Assembly: GCF_016793705.1 (NCBI RefSeq)
Contig: NZ_JAEULO010000043.1
Coordinates: 351 to 64,350 of the forward strand
DNA: 64,000 bases
Direction of reading: 5' to 3'
DNA from: Tabrizicola sp.
GTDB lineage: Bacteria > Pseudomonadota > Alphaproteobacteria > Rhodobacterales > Rhodobacteraceae
In this document: positions 2,877 to 33,847 of the stretch, in pieces
Layout of the letters: every line of letters starts with the position of its first letter
Numbering within the stretch: the stretch's first letter is position 1
Translations under genes and position numbers: made by a program
The notes under the pieces: model-generated
Databases searched by the model: none
Told to the model about the DNA's origin: nothing
Seen by the model: the letters and a program-made list of their open reading frames with translations, nothing else

Positions 2877-2960
2877 CCGCTCCTGCGCCGCGCCTTCGGC
2901 TTCTCGTCGCAGCGCAGCGAGGCGCGACGAAGTCGACGACGAGCGGTCGTCGGGAGTGGG

Positions 2961-3032
2961 TTAAGAAATCCCTAACGCCCGCGACCAACGCATTGATTCA
3001 GTTGAAGGATCAGAGATTGTCCACCGTGGACA
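2961..3032. repeat. Intergenic repeat copy A (IHF-consensus site plus TGTCCAC-N-GTGGACA palindrome)
   Basis: IHF-like AATCAATGCGTTG on the minus strand at 2986-2998; palindrome at 3018-3032; collinear with 32666-32737. Confidence 0.75.
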
Positions 3033-3035
3033 GGA

Positions 3036-3500
3036 TCACGCCGCCTGCGGCGCCCTTGCCTCGGTCAGGATCGCATACAGCTTCGCCGGGTCCGAATTCG
3101 CCCGCAGCTTGGCGACCACCGCCGCGTCCCGCATCGTCCGGCTGACCAGCGCCAGCGCCTTCAGGTGATCCACCCCGGAATCCTTCGGCGCGAACAGCCC
3201 GAAGACCAGATCCACCGGCTGCCGGTCGACGCTGTCATAGTCCAGGGGTTTCTCCAGCCGCAGGAAGACCCCGATGATCCCCTTCAGGTCCTCCAGCCGG
3301 GCATGGGGCAAAGCGATGCCATGCCCCACGCCGGTCGGCCCCAGCGACTCGCGCTCCTGCAGCCCGTCGATCGCCGCCGCTCCGCTCAGGCCATAGGCCT
3401 GCGCCGCGATCTCGCCCAGCTCCTGGAACAGCCGCTTCTTCGAGGTGAATTGCCCGACAACCCGAACGGCCCCCGGGGTAAGTAGCTTCGATAGTTCCAT
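3036..3500 (-). CDS. ptsN: PTS EIIA(Ntr)
   Basis: RESLGPTGVGHGIALPHAR phosphorylation motif; follows hpf. Confidence 0.95.
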   Translation of the reverse strand: MELSKLLTPGAVRVVGQFTSKKRLFQELGEIAAQAYGLSGAAAIDGLQERESLGPTGVGHGIALPHARLEDLKGIIGVFLRLEKPLDYDSVDRQPVDLVFGLFAPKDSGVDHLKALALVSRTMRDAAVVAKLRANSDPAKLYAILTEARAPQAA

Positions 3501-5082: not shown

Positions 5083-5567
5083 CAGTTGCCCCCCGGCACG
5101 AAGGTCGTCGTCACCCGGCCTTCCATCACGCCAGTCCCGTCCTTGAGGTTGATGGTCAGCTTCTGCCCGGCCATCGCCGAGGGCCCCTGCGTCAGTAGCA
5201 CATCGCCCGACAGCACGATCACGCCGGAGTCGATGGTGTAGAGCGCTTCCCGCGCCTCGGCGGCATCGCCCAGGTTCGTGACCACCACCCCGCCCGAGGC
5301 CACCAGCTCCTGAATGTTCTTCTGGTCCGGGCCGTAGCTGACCTTCACCTCGCCCGCCGCCAGCTTCATTTCGCCCTGCGTCACCACCACATTGCCGCTG
5401 AACACCGCCGAGCCATCGGCGTTGTTCACCGCCAGCTGGTCGGCCTGCACCTGCACCGGAAGCGAGGTGTCCTGGTTCAGGTCTCCAAAGGCGATCTTCT
5501 GCTGCGCCTCGGCGCTCGCCGCCGCCAGCGCCAGGGTCAGGACCAGAAAACCAAGCCGAAATGCCAT
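5082..5567 (-). CDS. lptA: LPS transport periplasmic protein (OstA-like)
   Basis: Signal peptide, beta-jellyroll motifs FSGNVVVTQG and LSGDVLLTQG; sits between lptC and lptB. Start re-assigned to 5567. Confidence 0.88.
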   Translation of the reverse strand: MAFRLGFLVLTLALAAASAEAQQKIAFGDLNQDTSLPVQVQADQLAVNNADGSAVFSGNVVVTQGEMKLAAGEVKVSYGPDQKNIQELVASGGVVVTNLGDAAEAREALYTIDSGVIVLSGDVLLTQGPSAMAGQKLTINLKDGTGVMEGRVTTTFVPGGN

Positions 5568-5589
5568 GCCTCGAACCTCTGCCGTCGTC

Positions 5590-6198
5590 TCAGCCGCCGG
5601 GCTGGTATACCAGCCGGACGCCGCCCTTGAAAACCAGAACATAGGCGCCGGGGGTCCGGTTGTCCTGACTTAGCACCATGCCATCGGCGCGGATCTCCCC
5701 CGCCGGGCCCGTCGCCACCACCGGAGCACGGCTTTCCAGCCCCGTCCGGTCCAGCTTCGCCGCCACTTCCGCCGTCTCCAGCCGATAGCCGGTGGCCGTG
5801 CTCAGCATCACGCCGCCGGACAGGATCACCTGCCGCGCGGCATCGTCCATCGTCGCGGTCGCCGCAAGAAGTTCCGTGCGACCGCCGTCCGGGGTGGCAA
5901 GCTCCAGCCGAAGCCCCTCAGCCGTGGCTGGGCTGCCCTCCGCCTCGGGCCGCGCCTCGGCCGCCGAAAGCGTCAGCGCGGCGCCGTCCTCGGTCGTCCC
6001 GGCATAGTTGGGTGCGGTCATCCGGGGTTCGCGCGCCAGATCCTCGACATCGACCTCGGCATAGGGCAGCGCGGCCTCGGGGTCGATCCGGCGCGCGACC
6101 AGGAACAACGTCGACAGGATCGCCAGCGCGGTCAGCGGCAGTGCCACCTTCAGCCAGCCCACCAGCCGCGTATGCCGGTCGACCCGTGCCATGGTCAC
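5590..6198 (-). CDS. lptC: LPS export periplasmic protein LptC
   Basis: Single N-terminal TM (WLKVALPLTALAILSTLF); kdsD-lptC-lptA-lptB synteny. Confidence 0.85.
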   Translation of the reverse strand: MTMARVDRHTRLVGWLKVALPLTALAILSTLFLVARRIDPEAALPYAEVDVEDLAREPRMTAPNYAGTTEDGAALTLSAAEARPEAEGSPATAEGLRLELATPDGGRTELLAATATMDDAARQVILSGGVMLSTATGYRLETAEVAAKLDRTGLESRAPVVATGPAGEIRADGMVLSQDNRTPGAYVLVFKGGVRLVYQPGG

Positions 6199-8849: not shown

Positions 8850-8867
8850 TGGGTCGAATTTTACCCG

Positions 8868-8882
8868 TTAGGCCGGTGTTAA
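8868..8882 (+). promoter_or_regulatory. CtrA-like box upstream of flgE
   Basis: TTAG-GCCGGTG-TTAA, one mismatch to TTAA-N7-TTAA. Confidence 0.55.
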
Positions 8883-12712: not shown

Positions 12713-13800
12713 TCCGTTTCCTGCTGGCCCTGTGCCTTTTCGCCAGCGCAGCGCTGGCCGAGCCGATCCGGATCAAGGACCTGGTGGAGTTCGATGGGGT
12801 GCGCGGCAACGACCTGGTCGGCTACGGGCTGGTGGTGGGCCTGAACGGCACCGGCGACGGGCTGCGGAACGCACCCTTCACCGAGGAGATCATGGCCAAC
12901 CTGCTGGAGCGGCTGGGGGCCAACGTGACGGGCGAGGAATTCCGGCCGAAGAACGTGGCCGCCGTCTTCGTGACTGCGCAGCTGCCACCCTTCGCCCGCG
13001 CCGGGGGGCGGATCGACGTGACGGTCTCGGCCATCGGGGACGCGAAGAGCCTTCTCGGCGGGACGCTGGTGATGACGCCGCTCAATGGCGCGGACGGGCA
13101 GATCTATGCGGTGGCGCAGGGGACGATCATCGCGGGCGGCGTGTCGGCCGAAGGCGATGCGGCGCGGGTCACGCAGGGCGTGCCCACGGCGGGGGTCATC
13201 CCCTCCGGTGCGCGGGTGGAGCGGGAGGTGGAGTTCGACTTCGCGGGCCTGCCGGTGCTGCGGCTGGCGCTGAAGGCGGCGGACTTCACCACCGCCGCAC
13301 GGATCGAGCAGGCGGTGAACGCCGAATTCGGCGCGCGGGTGGCCGAGATGCAGGATGCGGGGACGGTGGCAGTGGACATCGGCGCGACGGGGATGCTCTC
13401 GCCCGCGCATGTGCTGGCCCGGATCGAGGGCATCCTGGTCGAGCCCGAGACCCGGGCGCGGGTGGTGGTGGACCAGCGGTCGGGGACCATCGTGATGGGG
13501 GCGGACGTGCGGATCAGCCGGGTCGCGGTGGCGCAGGGGAACCTGACGCTGCGGGTCGAGGAGAGCCCGCTTGTCGTCCAGCCCAACCCCTTCACCGAGG
13601 GTGAGACGGTGGTGGTGCCCCGGACCAGCGCCTCGATCGGGAAGGAAGGGACGGGGCTTGCGGAAGTGCAGGGGGGGACAGATCTGGCCGAGGTGGTGGC
13701 CGGGCTGAACGCGCTGGGGGTGGCCCCGCATGACATGATCGACATCCTGAAAAGCATCAACGCGGCGGGGGCCCTGCATGCGGAGTTCGTGGTCAACTGA
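12709..13800 (+). CDS. flgI: Flagellar P-ring protein
   Basis: RIKDLVEFDGVRGNDLVGYGLVVGLNGTGD. Confidence 0.96.
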   Translation: MIRFLLALCLFASAALAEPIRIKDLVEFDGVRGNDLVGYGLVVGLNGTGDGLRNAPFTEEIMANLLERLGANVTGEEFRPKNVAAVFVTAQLPPFARAGGRIDVTVSAIGDAKSLLGGTLVMTPLNGADGQIYAVAQGTIIAGGVSAEGDAARVTQGVPTAGVIPSGARVEREVEFDFAGLPVLRLALKAADFTTAARIEQAVNAEFGARVAEMQDAGTVAVDIGATGMLSPAHVLARIEGILVEPETRARVVVDQRSGTIVMGADVRISRVAVAQGNLTLRVEESPLVVQPNPFTEGETVVVPRTSASIGKEGTGLAEVQGGTDLAEVVAGLNALGVAPHDMIDILKSINAAGALHAEFVVN

Positions 13801-13806
13801 CGCGGT

Positions 13807-13877
13807 TGTCCACGGTGGCAGAAATTAGAGACATCTGGAATCAACGGGTTGCGCGTGGACAGTAAGGATCTGGCAAG
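13807..13877. repeat. Intergenic repeat copy C (inverted relative to A and B)
   Basis: TGTCCACGGTGGCAG at 13807-13821, IHF consensus AATCAACGGGTTG at 13839-13851, extra GTGGACAG arm at 13856-13863. Confidence 0.65.
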
Positions 13878-32616: not shown

Positions 32617-32640
32617 AAGCCCGGCCGCAAGGCCGGGCTT
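32617..32640 (+). terminator. Hairpin terminator
   Basis: AAGCCCGGCC-GCAA-GGCCGGGCTT, perfect stem. Confidence 0.75.
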
Positions 32641-32665
32641 CGCATTTCAGGACGGGGGGCAAAGG

Positions 32666-32737
32666 TTTAGAAAGTCCTAATTTCCACAAGCAACCCCTTG
32701 ATCTGAAACCATTCTCGCGGATTGTCCACTGTGGACA
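32666..32737. repeat. Intergenic repeat copy B
   Basis: IHF-like GATCAAGGGGTTG (minus strand, 32691-32703), 19-nt gap, TGTCCACTGTGGACA at 32723-32737; same spacing as copy A. Confidence 0.75.
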
Positions 32738-32750
32738 GCCCGCACCCGCC

Positions 32751-32924
32751 TCAGCGCTGCTGAGGCCGGTTCTGGTCCTGCTGGCCTTTCTGCTGGCCTT
32801 GGCCCGCCTGCCTTTGGTCGGCCTGGCCCTGACCACCTTGCTGCGGCTTGTGCTGGCCGCCCTGGTTGTCCTGGCCTTGCTGCTTCTGTTGGTCCTGCTG
32901 CGGGTTCTGCTGCTGGTTCGCCAT
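32751..32924 (-). CDS. 57-aa Gln/Gly-rich disordered microprotein (not in the ORF track)
   Basis: MANQQQNPQQDQQKQQGQDNQGG...RPQQR*; AAAAGGAGAG RBS; own EcfG-type promoter. Confidence 0.8.
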   Translation of the reverse strand: MANQQQNPQQDQQKQQGQDNQGGQHKPQQGGQGQADQRQAGQGQQKGQQDQNRPQQR

Positions 32925-33010: not shown

Positions 33011-33037
33011 GAGCACATTCACCGGATGGAGACCCCG

Positions 33038-33847
33038 ATGCCCGCTGGCGCCTTCTGGAAGGGCTACCTCAAGCTCTCGCTCGTCACCTGCCCTGTGGCG
33101 ATGCAGCCCGCCACCAGCGACAGCGGCCGCCTGCGCTTCCACACCCTCAACCGCCGGACCGGCAACCGGGTGCAGCGGCAGTATGTCGACGCGGTGACCG
33201 GGAAACGGGTGGCGGACGAAGACCAGGCCCGCGGCTACCCGCGCGGGGAAGACGGCCATGTGATCCTGGAGGAAGCCGAGCTTGACGCCGTCGCCCTGGA
33301 AAGCACCCGGACCATCGACATCGAGGAGTTCGTCCCCTCCGGCCGCATCGGCTGGATCTGGTATGACCGCCCGCATTTTCTGGTCCCCGATGACAGGATT
33401 GCCGAAGAGGCCTTCTCGGTCATCCGCGACGCCATGCGGTCCACCGATACCGTCGGCATCGCGCGGCTGGTCCTCTACCGCCGCGAGCGGGCGGTGATGC
33501 TGACCCCGCGCGGCAAGGGGATCATCCTGTGGACCCTCCGCTATGGCGACGAGGTGCGGGACGAGGCGGAGTATTTCGCCGAGGCGGAAGCATCGAAGCC
33601 CGATGGCGAAGCGCTGAAGCTGGTCAGCCGGTTGATCGAAAGCCGGACCGCGGACTGGGACCCGAGCCTGGTCGAGGACCCGGTTCAGGACCGGCTGCTG
33701 AAACTGATCGAGTCGAAGCGGAAGGGCAGCAAGCGGGCGGCCAGGGCCAAGCCGGAGGCTCCGGCGGAGAGCGGCAAGGTGGTCAGCATCATCGACGCCC
33801 TGAAACGCAGCATCGCCGCCGAGAAGGCCCCGTCGCGCAAGCGCTAG
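33038..33847 (+). CDS. ku: NHEJ Ku protein (copy 1)
   Basis: AFWKGYLKLSLVTCPV; YDRPHFL; VVSIIDALKRS. Its stop shares a CTAG with the ligD stop. Confidence 0.94.
   Translation: MPAGAFWKGYLKLSLVTCPVAMQPATSDSGRLRFHTLNRRTGNRVQRQYVDAVTGKRVADEDQARGYPRGEDGHVILEEAELDAVALESTRTIDIEEFVPSGRIGWIWYDRPHFLVPDDRIAEEAFSVIRDAMRSTDTVGIARLVLYRRERAVMLTPRGKGIILWTLRYGDEVRDEAEYFAEAEASKPDGEALKLVSRLIESRTADWDPSLVEDPVQDRLLKLIESKRKGSKRAARAKPEAPAESGKVVSIIDALKRSIAAEKAPSRKR

What the first reader, a model, noticed from the sequence alone, without database searches (positions are those of the whole stretch)
2961..3032. ~72-bp IHF-site plus palindrome repeat found only between convergent genes (3 copies)
Seen: copies at 2961-3032, 32666-32737 and, inverted, 13807-13877. 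Each has a WATCAA-N4-TTR-type site and a TGTCCAC-N-GTGGACA palindrome (imperfect in copy C). The gap between them is exactly 19 nt in A and B and about 17-18 nt in C. All three lie between convergent stop codons (sulfotransferase/ptsN, small genes, flgI/nosX). Established: WATCAANNNNTTR is the IHF consensus, and enterobacterial RIP/RIB elements pair IHF sites with REP palindromes. Inference: a Rhodobacteraceae analogue that handles supercoiling, termination or nucleoid folding, or a non-autonomous REP/MITE family.
Basis: partly seen in the sequence, partly recalled or inferred. Interest (0 to 1): 0.65.

Follow-up and report, generated by a model that had tools for sequence, protein, structure and literature searches.

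The report
Stop-codon-abutting IHF-site palindrome repeat family
The three look-alike stretches belong to an apparently undescribed family of about 78-base intergenic repeats in Tabrizicola-like bacteria, each built from a perfect 15-base palindrome, an IHF-type bending site and an A/T-containing block, and usually placed directly behind a gene's stop codon.

Summary
All three copies sit at the stated coordinates, and no fourth copy is in the window.

About 110 hits share an architecture that extends beyond the bases the pattern demanded: CAAA-S-TTAA-N7-YTAAC-G, 8 bp, CAACCCaTTGAT (the reverse complement of WATCAA-N4-TTR), 18-19 bp, TGTCCAC-Y-GTGGACA.

The "only between convergent genes" rule does not generalise. 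The actual rule is that the palindrome end lies 0-10 nt from the stop codon of a gene reading towards it (0-3 nt in 47 of those 64 copies). This holds in 64 of 82 evaluable copies. The other end faces gene ends and gene starts about equally.

- No RNA covariation, Rfam match or literature hit for the palindrome was found.
- There are no terminal inverted repeats and no target duplication.
- Spacings are rigid.
- Non-motif positions are randomised even between near-identical flanks, while motif positions are kept. This points to an old, selected element.
- It is absent at the same sites in Thioclava, Xinfangfangia, Pseudogemmobacter and two Rhodobacter isolates.

Best reading: a clade-specific extragenic repeat that works like the enterobacterial RIP/BIME elements, as an IHF-bent nucleoprotein site at the ends of transcription units. 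It is also transcribed as a hairpin directly behind the stop codon. No binding has been tested.

The parts
2960..2977 (+). Copy A, TTAA block: G-TTAA-GAAATCC-CTAAC-G
   Evidence: Family logo: TT 0.88/0.96, AA 0.98/0.97, G 0.93.
2986..2998 (-). Copy A, IHF-consensus core: AATCAATGCGTTG (WATCAANNNNTTR)
   Evidence: One of only two matches in the window (expected 0.11).
2999..3017 (+). Copy A, 19-nt spacer, purine/A-rich next to the palindrome
   Evidence: Across the family the spacer is 19 nt in 62 copies, 18 nt in 38, and 17 or 20 nt once each.
3018..3032 (.). Copy A, perfect 15-bp palindrome TGTCCACCGTGGACA, 3 nt from the ptsN stop codon (3036-3038, - strand)
2877..2955 (.). GC-rich long-hairpin repeat of a second family, adjoining the TTAA end of copy A. 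Together with copy A it forms a ~155-nt insertion relative to Thioclava and other relatives.
32665..32737 (+). Copy B: TTTA-N7-CTAAT block at 32665-32682, GATCAAGGGGTTG core at 32691-32703 (- strand), palindrome TGTCCACTGTGGACA at 32723-32737. The stop codon of a small - strand ORF lies 13 nt away (32751-32753).
   Evidence: RNA contigs cover this ORF and the whole copy.
32617..32641 (.). Terminator hairpin left of copy B, usable on both strands. It places copy B between the stop codon and the terminator of the - strand transcript.
13807..13877 (-). Copy C: degenerate palindrome at 13807-13821 (CTGCCACCGTGGACA on the - strand), AATCAACGGGTTG core at 13839-13851 (+ strand), TTGC-N7-TTAC block at 13860-13877. 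It lies 6 nt after the flgI stop codon (13798-13800).

Best explanation
The finding is one copy of an apparently undescribed family of ~78-bp extragenic repeats carried by Tabrizicola and close relatives (Paracoccaceae).

Each copy is a fixed-geometry composite of four parts:
- a 15-bp palindrome, TGTCCAC-Y-GTGGACA;
- an 18-19-bp spacer, A-rich next to the palindrome;
- an IHF-consensus core (WATCAA-N4-TTR on the opposite strand);
- after 8 further bp, a TTAA-N7-YTAAC-G block.

Copies sit at the ends of transcription units, with the palindrome end butted against the stop codon of the upstream gene.

Likely mechanism (inferred): as DNA it works like the enterobacterial RIP/BIME-1 elements. IHF bends the middle sharply, which brings whatever binds the palindrome next to the TTAA block. 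The result is a compact nucleoprotein site at the operon end that could act as a topological or read-through barrier.

Because the element lies upstream of the terminator, it is also transcribed as the first part of the 3'UTR. There the palindrome forms a 6-bp hairpin directly behind the stop codon, which could affect mRNA decay or ribosome release.

The family spread long ago by an unknown copy-and-paste process, and its motif positions have since been held by selection.
For: Shown:
- The family is real. 102 distinct copies share one architecture, including strongly conserved bases that the search pattern did not demand.
- Geometry is rigid. There are no indels between the TTAA block and the IHF core in any of the 102 copies, and the spacer varies by 1 bp only.
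- IHF consensus:
  - It occurs twice in 64 kb, both times inside the elements, against 0.11 expected.
  - In diverged copies CAAC becomes CAAA or CAAG, which changes only the free N of the consensus and keeps TTR.
- The palindrome end is 0-10 nt from a converging stop codon in 64 of 82 evaluable copies, and 0-3 nt in 47 of those 64. The genes are unrelated (EF-P, FlgI, PtsN, GAPDH-type, CobO and others).
- Orientation does not follow one replication direction. Both orientations occur within 30 kb of the window.
- Selection: where flanks are 90-99% identical, non-motif positions are near random while motif positions are kept.
- Transcription: RNA contigs of two metatranscriptomes cover the small gene and all of copy B. 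A terminator lies beyond it.
- Clade restriction and gain or loss: the ptsN and gntR sites are empty in Thioclava sp. FR2, Xinfangfangia, Pseudogemmobacter and two Rhodobacter isolates.

From the literature: REP/BIME elements bind IHF and gyrase, lie at 3' ends, stabilise mRNA and, within 15 nt of a stop codon, stall ribosomes (PMC5082802).
Against: - No binding of IHF or any other protein has been shown.
- The IHF consensus carries little information, and it was noticed after the fact.
- A purely architectural DNA role does not by itself explain the fixed orientation towards the upstream gene, or the 0-3 nt abutment to the stop codon.
- The centre base of the palindrome is strand-asymmetric (C 79, T 19, G 4, A 0 of 102). 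That fits single-strand or asymmetric recognition better than a simple symmetric dimer.
- About 18 of 82 copies do not abut a stop codon. Some lie 3-7 nt upstream of a -35-like CTTGCC/CTTGCA box, before typA and before the tmRNA gene.
- There is only one palindrome and no homology to REP, so this is an analogue of RIP, not a member.
- The copying mechanism is unknown.
Confidence: 0.45

Rival explanations
1. RNA-level 3'UTR element. The function lies in the transcript. A sequence-specific hairpin 0-3 nt after the stop codon, followed by a conserved single-stranded tract, would be recognised by an RNA-binding protein, a ribonuclease or the terminating ribosome. It would set mRNA stability or translation termination, as REPs within 15 nt of a stop codon do in E. 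coli.
For: - The orientation is fixed relative to the upstream gene, and the palindrome abuts the stop codon.
- Copy B lies between a stop codon and a terminator and is covered by RNA contigs.
- Of 14 changes in the outer three pairs, 9 keep pairing as G-U in the gene-sense RNA.
- L140 carries a symmetric double change, TGACCAC-N-GTGGTCA.
- The centre base is strand-asymmetric.
- 38% of copies have a U-rich tract right after the hairpin.
- There is precedent in REPs (PMC5082802).
Against: - RNAalifold finds no structure beyond the 6-bp hairpin on either strand, and no compensatory pairs among 100 sequences.
- The stem sequence is invariant rather than covarying.
- The rigid 1-bp spacing and a correctly placed IHF consensus with an A/T tract are not expected of a single-stranded RNA tract.
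- The right half of the palindrome was fixed by the search pattern, so the G-U count is biased.
- Some copies lie upstream of promoters, not in 3'UTRs.
Confidence: 0.2
2. Site-specific recombination or docking site. The layout of core palindrome, IHF site and directly repeated A/T block mimics a lambda-type attL arm. The elements would then be sites where accessory DNA is inserted or exchanged next to the 3' ends of genes.
For: - At the gntR-pirin locus, the stretch beyond the TTAA end is 0-1470 nt long, unrelated between contigs and of lower GC. It carries different accessory ORFs, while gntR itself is up to 99% identical.
- In L021 a 1.09-kb desaturase insert is bounded by two element copies, each preceded by the last ~20 nt of gntR.
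- 6 of 13 orthologous loci have indels of 130-1400 nt at the TTAA end.
Against: - A 7-1-7 palindrome leaves no 6-8-bp overlap region of the kind tyrosine recombinases need.
- No integrase was seen next to any copy, although this was not searched systematically.
- Ends of operons are indel hot spots in any case. Synteny also breaks after flgI and ptsN in relatives that lack the element.
- 7 of 13 loci are collinear right up to the element.
- The L021 repeat extends about 85 nt into gntR, so the crossover need not have been in the element.
- Metagenome contigs can be chimeric.
Confidence: 0.12
3. Regulon or promoter module. The palindrome would be an operator for a dimeric transcription factor. 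The TTAA-N7-YTAAC block would be a CtrA-type response-regulator box, with IHF looping the two. Together they would drive or repress a promoter for the downstream gene, an antisense RNA or a small RNA.
For: - The TTAA-N7-YTAAC block matches the CtrA-type TTAA-N7-TTAAC layout, as I recall it.
- Some copies lie 3-7 nt upstream of a -35-like box, before typA and before the tmRNA gene.
- About half of the copies have a co-directional gene 30-290 nt beyond the TTAA end.
Against: - In most copies the palindrome abuts a stop codon. In about half of the classifiable cases a converging gene lies on the other side, so there is nothing downstream to regulate.
- No sigma-70-like promoter was found in any window copy.
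- The first half-site is TTAA in only about half of the copies.
- The RNA contigs at copy B start outside the element, not inside it.
- The adjacent genes have no functional theme.
Confidence: 0.08
4. Currently active non-autonomous mobile element (a MITE, or a REP mobilised by a RAYT-type transposase) with no host function.
For: - The family is dispersed and clade-restricted, and presence varies between relatives at the same site.
- It is often adjoined by other repeat families.
Against: - There are no terminal inverted repeats and no target duplication.
- Copies within a contig are as diverged as copies between contigs (0.618 against 0.624).
- Window copies are only about 55-63% identical to one another.
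- Motif positions stay intact while neutral positions are saturated. A decaying selfish element would not show this.
Confidence: 0.08

Closest known systems
RIP/RIB elements (BIME-1) of E. coli and Salmonella: IHF-binding extragenic palindromic repeats at 3' ends of transcription units (Boccard & Prentki 1993, as cited in PMC5082802)
   Same: - Dispersed extragenic repeat.
- An IHF consensus site joined to a palindrome.
- Found at the ends of transcription units, between convergent or co-directional genes.
- Transcribed into 3'UTRs.
   Different: - No sequence homology.
- One perfect 15-bp palindrome instead of two inverted REP units flanking the IHF motif.
- An extra TTAA-N7-YTAAC block.
- Fixed orientation towards the upstream gene, with 0-3 nt abutment to its stop codon.
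- Restricted to a Tabrizicola-like clade.
REP sequences and their RAYT (TnpA_REP) transposases
   Same: - Short clade-specific extragenic palindromes just downstream of stop codons.
- Kept over long periods.
- Effects at the RNA level when within 15 nt of a stop codon (PMC5082802).
   Different: - No conserved GTAG-type tetranucleotide. GTAG precedes the palindrome only where the stop codon happens to be TAG.
- A perfect rather than imperfect palindrome.
- About 60 further conserved bases.
- No RAYT gene was examined.
Br-REP1 and Br-REP2 of Bradyrhizobium (PMC5082802)
   Same: Alphaproteobacterial, genus-restricted palindromic repeats in 3'UTRs and between convergent genes, with copy number differing strongly between relatives.
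   Different: Different sequences. They are made of stem-loops only, and neither an IHF-type site nor fixed stop-codon abutment is reported for them.
Correia elements (NEMIS) of Neisseria
   Same: About 100-bp intergenic repeats with a functional IHF site in the middle, often transcribed with neighbouring genes (from my own knowledge).
   Different: Correia elements have 26-bp terminal inverted repeats and a TA target duplication. Neither is present here.
Lambda-type attL arm (core, IHF H' site, arm-type direct repeats)
   Same: The same order of parts over a similar length: inverted core, IHF site, directly repeated A/T-containing sites.
   Different: The inverted halves are separated by 1 bp, not 6-8. 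The element occurs at many unrelated genes with a constant 'core'. No integrase is known.

Membership tests
RIP/RIB (BIME-1) | IHF-binding motif matching WATCAANNNNTTR | tested here: met
   Consensus match only, in copies A and C. Copy B has one mismatch. Across the 102 pattern-selected copies the unconstrained W position is A or T in 91%. It is kept in 5 of 8 copies that were not selected by the pattern.
RIP/RIB (BIME-1) | IHF motif flanked by two REP units in inverted orientation | tested here: not met
   There is one palindrome on one side only. The other side is a TTAA-N7-YTAAC block, which forms at most a 4-bp inverted repeat.
RIP/RIB (BIME-1) | [quoted passage not shown] | tested here: met
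   64 of 82 evaluable copies abut a stop codon. The other side faces either a gene end or a gene start. A minority lie upstream of promoters.
RIP/RIB (BIME-1) | IHF binding demonstrated | not testable with these tools
   Needs EMSA or ChIP.
REP/RAYT system | Imperfect palindrome with a conserved 5' GTAG-type tetranucleotide | tested here: not met
   The palindrome is perfect, and the positions flanking it are not conserved (Y at -16, S at +0).
REP/RAYT system | A RAYT gene flanked by the repeats | not tested
   The whole genome is not available here.
MITE | Terminal inverted repeats and a target-site duplication | tested here: not met
   The two ends are unlike (CAAAsSTTAA... against ...GTGGACA). 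By eye, no direct repeat is shared between the left and right flanks.
MITE | Near-identical recent copies within a genome | tested here: not met
   Same-contig pairs are 0.618 identical against 0.624 for all other pairs.
Intrinsic terminator | GC-rich hairpin followed by a U tract | tested here: inconclusive
   - The hairpin is only 6-7 bp, at -6.5 to -9.4 kcal/mol.
- A U-rich tail follows in the 38% subfamily with the 18-nt spacer.
- No terminator is called within the elements in the window copies.
Structured RNA family (Rfam) | Match to a curated model, or covarying structure | tested here: not met
   No Rfam hit on the elements at gathering score or at E<=5. No covariation was found.
Integron attC | R''/L''...L'/R' imperfect inverted repeat spanning the whole site, next to the cassette ORF | tested here: not met
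   There is no long-range pairing. The adjacent genes are core housekeeping genes.
Lambda-type att arm | Core of two inverted sites around a 6-8-bp overlap, plus IHF and arm-type repeats and a nearby integrase | tested here: inconclusive
   The order of parts fits, but the core spacing (1 bp) does not. An integrase was not searched for. There is one suggestive insert, in L021.
CtrA box | TTAA-N7-TTAAC | tested here: inconclusive
   The spacing fits. Copy A matches TTAA-N7-CTAAC. In the family logo the third and fourth bases of the first half-site are A in only 0.69 and 0.73 of copies, and the fifth-last base is T in 0.53 or C in 0.46.

The most novel reading that the evidence does not exclude
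The elements are not passive repeats but part of a clade-specific system that marks gene ends. Two versions remain open. In one, they are protein-bound, IHF-folded roadblocks that define where transcription units end, in place of or ahead of hairpin terminators. In the other, they are attL-like docking sites at which accessory DNA is inserted next to core genes, which would amount to a chromosome-wide cassette system unlike integrons.
Probability: 0.15. Interest if true: 0.8.

Novelty: new variant of a known kind. Interest (0 to 1): 0.55.

Why it matters
In a 66% G+C genome, consensus IHF sites are very rare: 0.11 are expected in this window by chance. These repeats may therefore supply many of the strong IHF sites on the chromosome, all at gene ends, which would make them a major feature of nucleoid and transcription-unit architecture in this clade.

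The abutment to stop codons, together with a sequence-invariant palindrome, makes a clean and testable case for how extragenic repeats couple DNA architecture, transcription termination and mRNA fate outside the enterobacteria. The palindrome also offers a direct handle for pulling down an unknown binding protein.

Tried and rejected
- **Genome-collection scan.** I set the gap wrongly (15-21 nt instead of 19-25), so only the rare C-type spacing could match. The 4 hits are probably chance; L004, the only one read, is not a family member.
- **Plasmid collection, blastn with two consensus queries.** No family member was found.
- **Phage and viral contigs.** One true copy and two chance hits, so this is not a phage feature.
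- **Rfam at gathering score and at E<=5.** Nothing on the elements.
- **Literature search for the palindrome in six spellings.** No papers.
- **RNAalifold on both strands.** Only the palindrome hairpin.
- **Sigma-70 promoter and terminator scans of the three copies.** None within the elements.
- **My own terminator search beyond the TTAA end.** Only 15% of copies have a canonical terminator there.
- **Laying DNA metagenome contigs to find empty sites (RNA run X14).** The 'joints' have 20-nt sides that are just the shared palindrome, so I treat them as spurious.
- **Ideas read off the sequence and dropped:**
  - the palindrome as two overlapping DnaA boxes, a parS or matS site, a lux box, a PpsR or NifA site (TGT-N9-ACA does not fit N12 or N10), or a Fur-type 7-1-7 box;
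  - sigma-54 or ECF promoters in the TTAA block;
  - a small ORF, since the 1-nt length variants break the reading frame;
  - a polarity signal tied to replication direction, since both orientations occur within 30 kb.
- **Extension of the palindrome by its flanks.** The flanks are complementary in 25% of copies against 22% expected, so there is no extension.

Full report
**1. Observation**

- Copies A (2960-3032, +) and B (32665-32737, +) carry the perfect palindrome TGTCCAC-N-GTGGACA. These are its only two occurrences in the window, against 0.14 expected.
- Copy C (13807-13877, -) has CTGCCACCGTGGACA.
- The gap between the IHF-type site and the palindrome is 19, 19 and 17 nt.
- A profile built from the three copies finds no fourth copy in 64 kb.
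- The strict IHF consensus WATCAANNNNTTR occurs only twice in the whole window, both times inside copies A and C, against 0.11 expected. Copy B reads GATCAAGGGGTTG, one mismatch.
- All three copies lie between convergent units:
  - A lies between an unnamed gene with no Pfam family (so 'sulfotransferase' is unsupported) and ptsN (PTS_EIIA_2).
  - C lies between flgI and an ApbE-family gene.
  - B lies between a terminator-ended + strand unit and a small Q-rich - strand ORF next to a Ku gene.

**2. A large family**

My first scan of the genome collection used a wrong gap and was wasted. With the gap corrected, the pattern matches all three window copies and no shuffle of the window.

By my own estimate, chance would give roughly ten hits. 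Ten matches are indeed unrelated coding sequence. The other roughly 110 share an architecture that includes bases the pattern did not demand:

CAaa-S-TTAAsAAAyCCyTAAC-G, 8 bp (yCCRCRac or an A-run), CAACCCaTTGATTTCA, a variable spacer with (G)AAAATC or ATCAGAgaT next to the palindrome, then TGTCCAC-Y-GTGGACA-S.

Among the unconstrained positions:
- TT is present at 0.88 and 0.96, AA at 0.98 and 0.97, and G at 0.93.
- The left three bases of the palindrome are at 0.93-0.98.

The geometry is rigid:
- No copy has an indel between the TTAA block and the IHF core.
- The spacer between IHF core and palindrome is 19 nt in 62 copies, 18 nt in 38, and 17 or 20 nt once each.

A profile search of the fetched loci added seven diverged copies, and one more lies after ptsN in L140. 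In these copies the IHF core survives changes of CAAC to CAAA or CAAG. That alters only the free N of the consensus and keeps TTR.

**3. Source organism and spread**
- The window's PtsN is 98% identical to that of a Tabrizicola sp., in the family Paracoccaceae.
- The DNA occurs in activated-sludge and bioreactor metagenomes.
- The element-bearing loci have 57-72% G+C (5th-95th percentile 62-69%).
- In relatives with 90% identical PtsN (Thioclava sp. FR2 and two unnamed lineages), ptsN and the convergent gene are 2-5 nt apart, with no element.
- At the gntR site, Xinfangfangia, Pseudogemmobacter sonorensis and two Rhodobacter isolates also lack it.
- No copy is on any plasmid in PLSDB.
- The family is therefore confined to a narrow clade, and individual sites are gained or lost. 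Copy A is part of a ~155-nt insertion relative to those relatives.

**4. Placement rule**
- In 64 of 82 evaluable copies, the palindrome end lies 0-10 nt from the stop codon of a gene that reads towards it.
  - 47 of the 64 are within 0-3 nt.
  - The window copies lie at 3, 6 and 13 nt.
- The genes are unrelated: EF-P, FlgI, PtsN, class IV aminotransferase, CobO, a thioredoxin-reductase-like protein, a GAPDH-type protein, a glutamine-synthetase-type protein, acetyl-CoA hydrolase and an FCD-type GntR regulator.
- The TTAA end faces 29 gene ends and 27 gene starts, at distances mostly from about 0 to 280 nt. 'Only between convergent genes' is therefore not the rule.
- Where both neighbours converge, the palindrome side is the closer one in 15 of 19 cases.
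- A minority of copies break the rule. In L025 and L059 the palindrome is 3 nt upstream of a CTTGCC box before typA. In L074 and L119 (and probably L111, by its flank) it directly precedes the two-piece tmRNA gene.
- Both orientations occur within 30 kb of the window, so the polarity follows the gene, not replication.

**5. RNA or DNA?**

Against an RNA-level function:
- RNAalifold on either strand predicts only the palindrome hairpin, with no compensatory pairs among 100 sequences.
- Rfam has no match.

For an RNA-level function:
- The hairpin is modest, at -6.5 to -9.4 kcal/mol.
- 9 of 14 changes in its outer pairs give G-U in the gene-sense RNA. However, the right half was fixed by my search pattern, so this count is biased.
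- L140 carries TGACCAC-N-GTGGTCA, a symmetric double change.
- The centre base is strand-asymmetric: C 79, T 19, G 4, A 0 of 102.
- Copy B lies between a stop codon and a terminator. RNA contigs of two metatranscriptomes cover the small gene and the whole element and stop at 32655-32664. That copy is therefore very probably 3'UTR, although contigs carry no strand and may include DNA.

For a DNA-level function: the invariant stem sequence, the 1-bp tolerance in spacing, and an IHF core with an A/T tract at the expected distance all suggest a nucleoprotein complex.

I conclude that the element is probably read as DNA and, unavoidably, also exists as a hairpin directly behind the stop codon in the mRNA.

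**6. Evolution**
- Copies on the same contig are no more alike than copies from different contigs (0.618 against 0.624).
- The window copies are only about 55-63% identical to one another, so there has been no recent burst of copying.
- The same gene end carries the element in several species.
- Between such orthologous copies the non-motif positions are near random, even where flanks are 90-99% identical (L039/L092, L074/L119), while motif positions are intact.
- This is the signature of selection on the motifs. It argues against a decaying selfish repeat.
- It is not explained why the unconstrained positions diverge so much faster than the neighbouring synonymous sites. Gene conversion between copies or repeated replacement are both possible.

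**7. An unexplained lead**
- At the gntR-pirin locus the element and the last ~90 nt before pirin are shared. The 0-1470 nt between them are unrelated between contigs, lower in G+C, and carry different accessory ORFs (a fatty-acid desaturase, a RibD_C protein, an unknown protein).
- In L021 the 1.09-kb desaturase insert is bounded by two element copies, each preceded by the last ~20 nt of gntR. As a result the desaturase ORF ends with gntR's last seven codons.
- 6 of 13 orthologous loci show indels of 130-1400 nt at the TTAA end, and 7 are collinear.
- This could mean that the element is a recombination or docking site. Its order of parts resembles a lambda attL arm.
- However, operon ends are indel hot spots even without the element. 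The 7-1-7 core also leaves no overlap region, and contigs can be chimeric. I keep this as a minority reading.

**8. Comparison and verdict**
- The closest known things are the enterobacterial RIP/RIB (BIME-1) elements: an IHF site joined to extragenic palindromes at the 3' ends of transcription units.
- REP elements more generally act on DNA (IHF, gyrase) and on RNA (mRNA stabilisation, termination, ribosome stalling when within 15 nt of a stop codon) (PMC5082802).
- This family works like them in layout and placement but is not a member. It has no homology, a single perfect palindrome, an extra TTAA-N7-YTAAC block, fixed polarity and near-zero distance to the stop codon.
- It also fails the tests for a MITE, an integron attC site and a structured RNA.
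- I rate it a new variant of a known kind, with moderate interest. All functional statements are inferences. The decisive work is a whole-genome census, IHF and palindrome-binding assays, and transcript-end mapping in a Tabrizicola isolate.

Noticed in passing
window 2877-2955; also L019, L037, L055, L073/L105, L107 (two copies), L115: A second repeat family. It is a GC-rich long hairpin (GCTCGTCGtcGACTTCGTCGCkCCTCGCT ... CGACGAGrAGcCGAAG ...), usually directly adjoining the TTAA end of the 78-bp element. The pairing gives BIME-like mosaics.
   Followed up: partly
L031:676, L036:7316 and 11131, L070:11509, L096:4461, L117:66, L144:10676: A third repeat (...GAGCGCtgacGCGCAAGCCTTTTGTCTCGCCTCTGCGCG...CAACCGGCTCGGGCG...CCTCCGGCGGGGATATTTG). 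It often lies about 90-120 nt from the element's TTAA end, and it also sits after gntR in a Rhodobacter isolate that lacks the element. It has no Rfam match.
   Followed up: partly
L021:4959-6140: A desaturase-like ORF (5135-6068) ends with the last seven codons of the neighbouring gntR gene, followed by a second, degenerate element copy. This looks like a small integrated islet bounded by a direct repeat of 'gntR 3' end plus element'.
   Followed up: partly
L074:226-629 and L119:4960-5398: The palindrome end of the element lies 3 nt from the start of the Rfam alpha_tmRNA match (two-piece tmRNA gene), just upstream of a CTTGCAC-N17-CCTATAT promoter-like box.
   Followed up: partly
L140:10469-10554: After ptsN in a relative with 94% identical PtsN, the element carries the palindrome TGACCAC-N-GTGGTCA. 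Both halves are changed symmetrically.
   Followed up: partly
L132:10465-10471, L134:10465-10468, L137:4353-4360: In related genomes, convergent genes (ptsN with its neighbour, flgI with its neighbour) are only 2-6 nt apart, with no room for a terminator. Intergenic space at gene ends is extremely compressed in this clade.
   Followed up: no
window 32751-32924 (- strand) and 33026-33847 (+ strand): A small ORF encodes a Q/G-rich repetitive peptide with no Pfam family. It lies next to a Ku (non-homologous end-joining) gene and is covered by metatranscriptome contigs.
   Followed up: no
window 8867-8882 (- strand): A perfect TTAA-N7-CTAAC match (TTAACACCGGCCTAAC) lies outside the elements, about 4 kb from the flgI gene. 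It could be a CtrA-type box.
   Followed up: no
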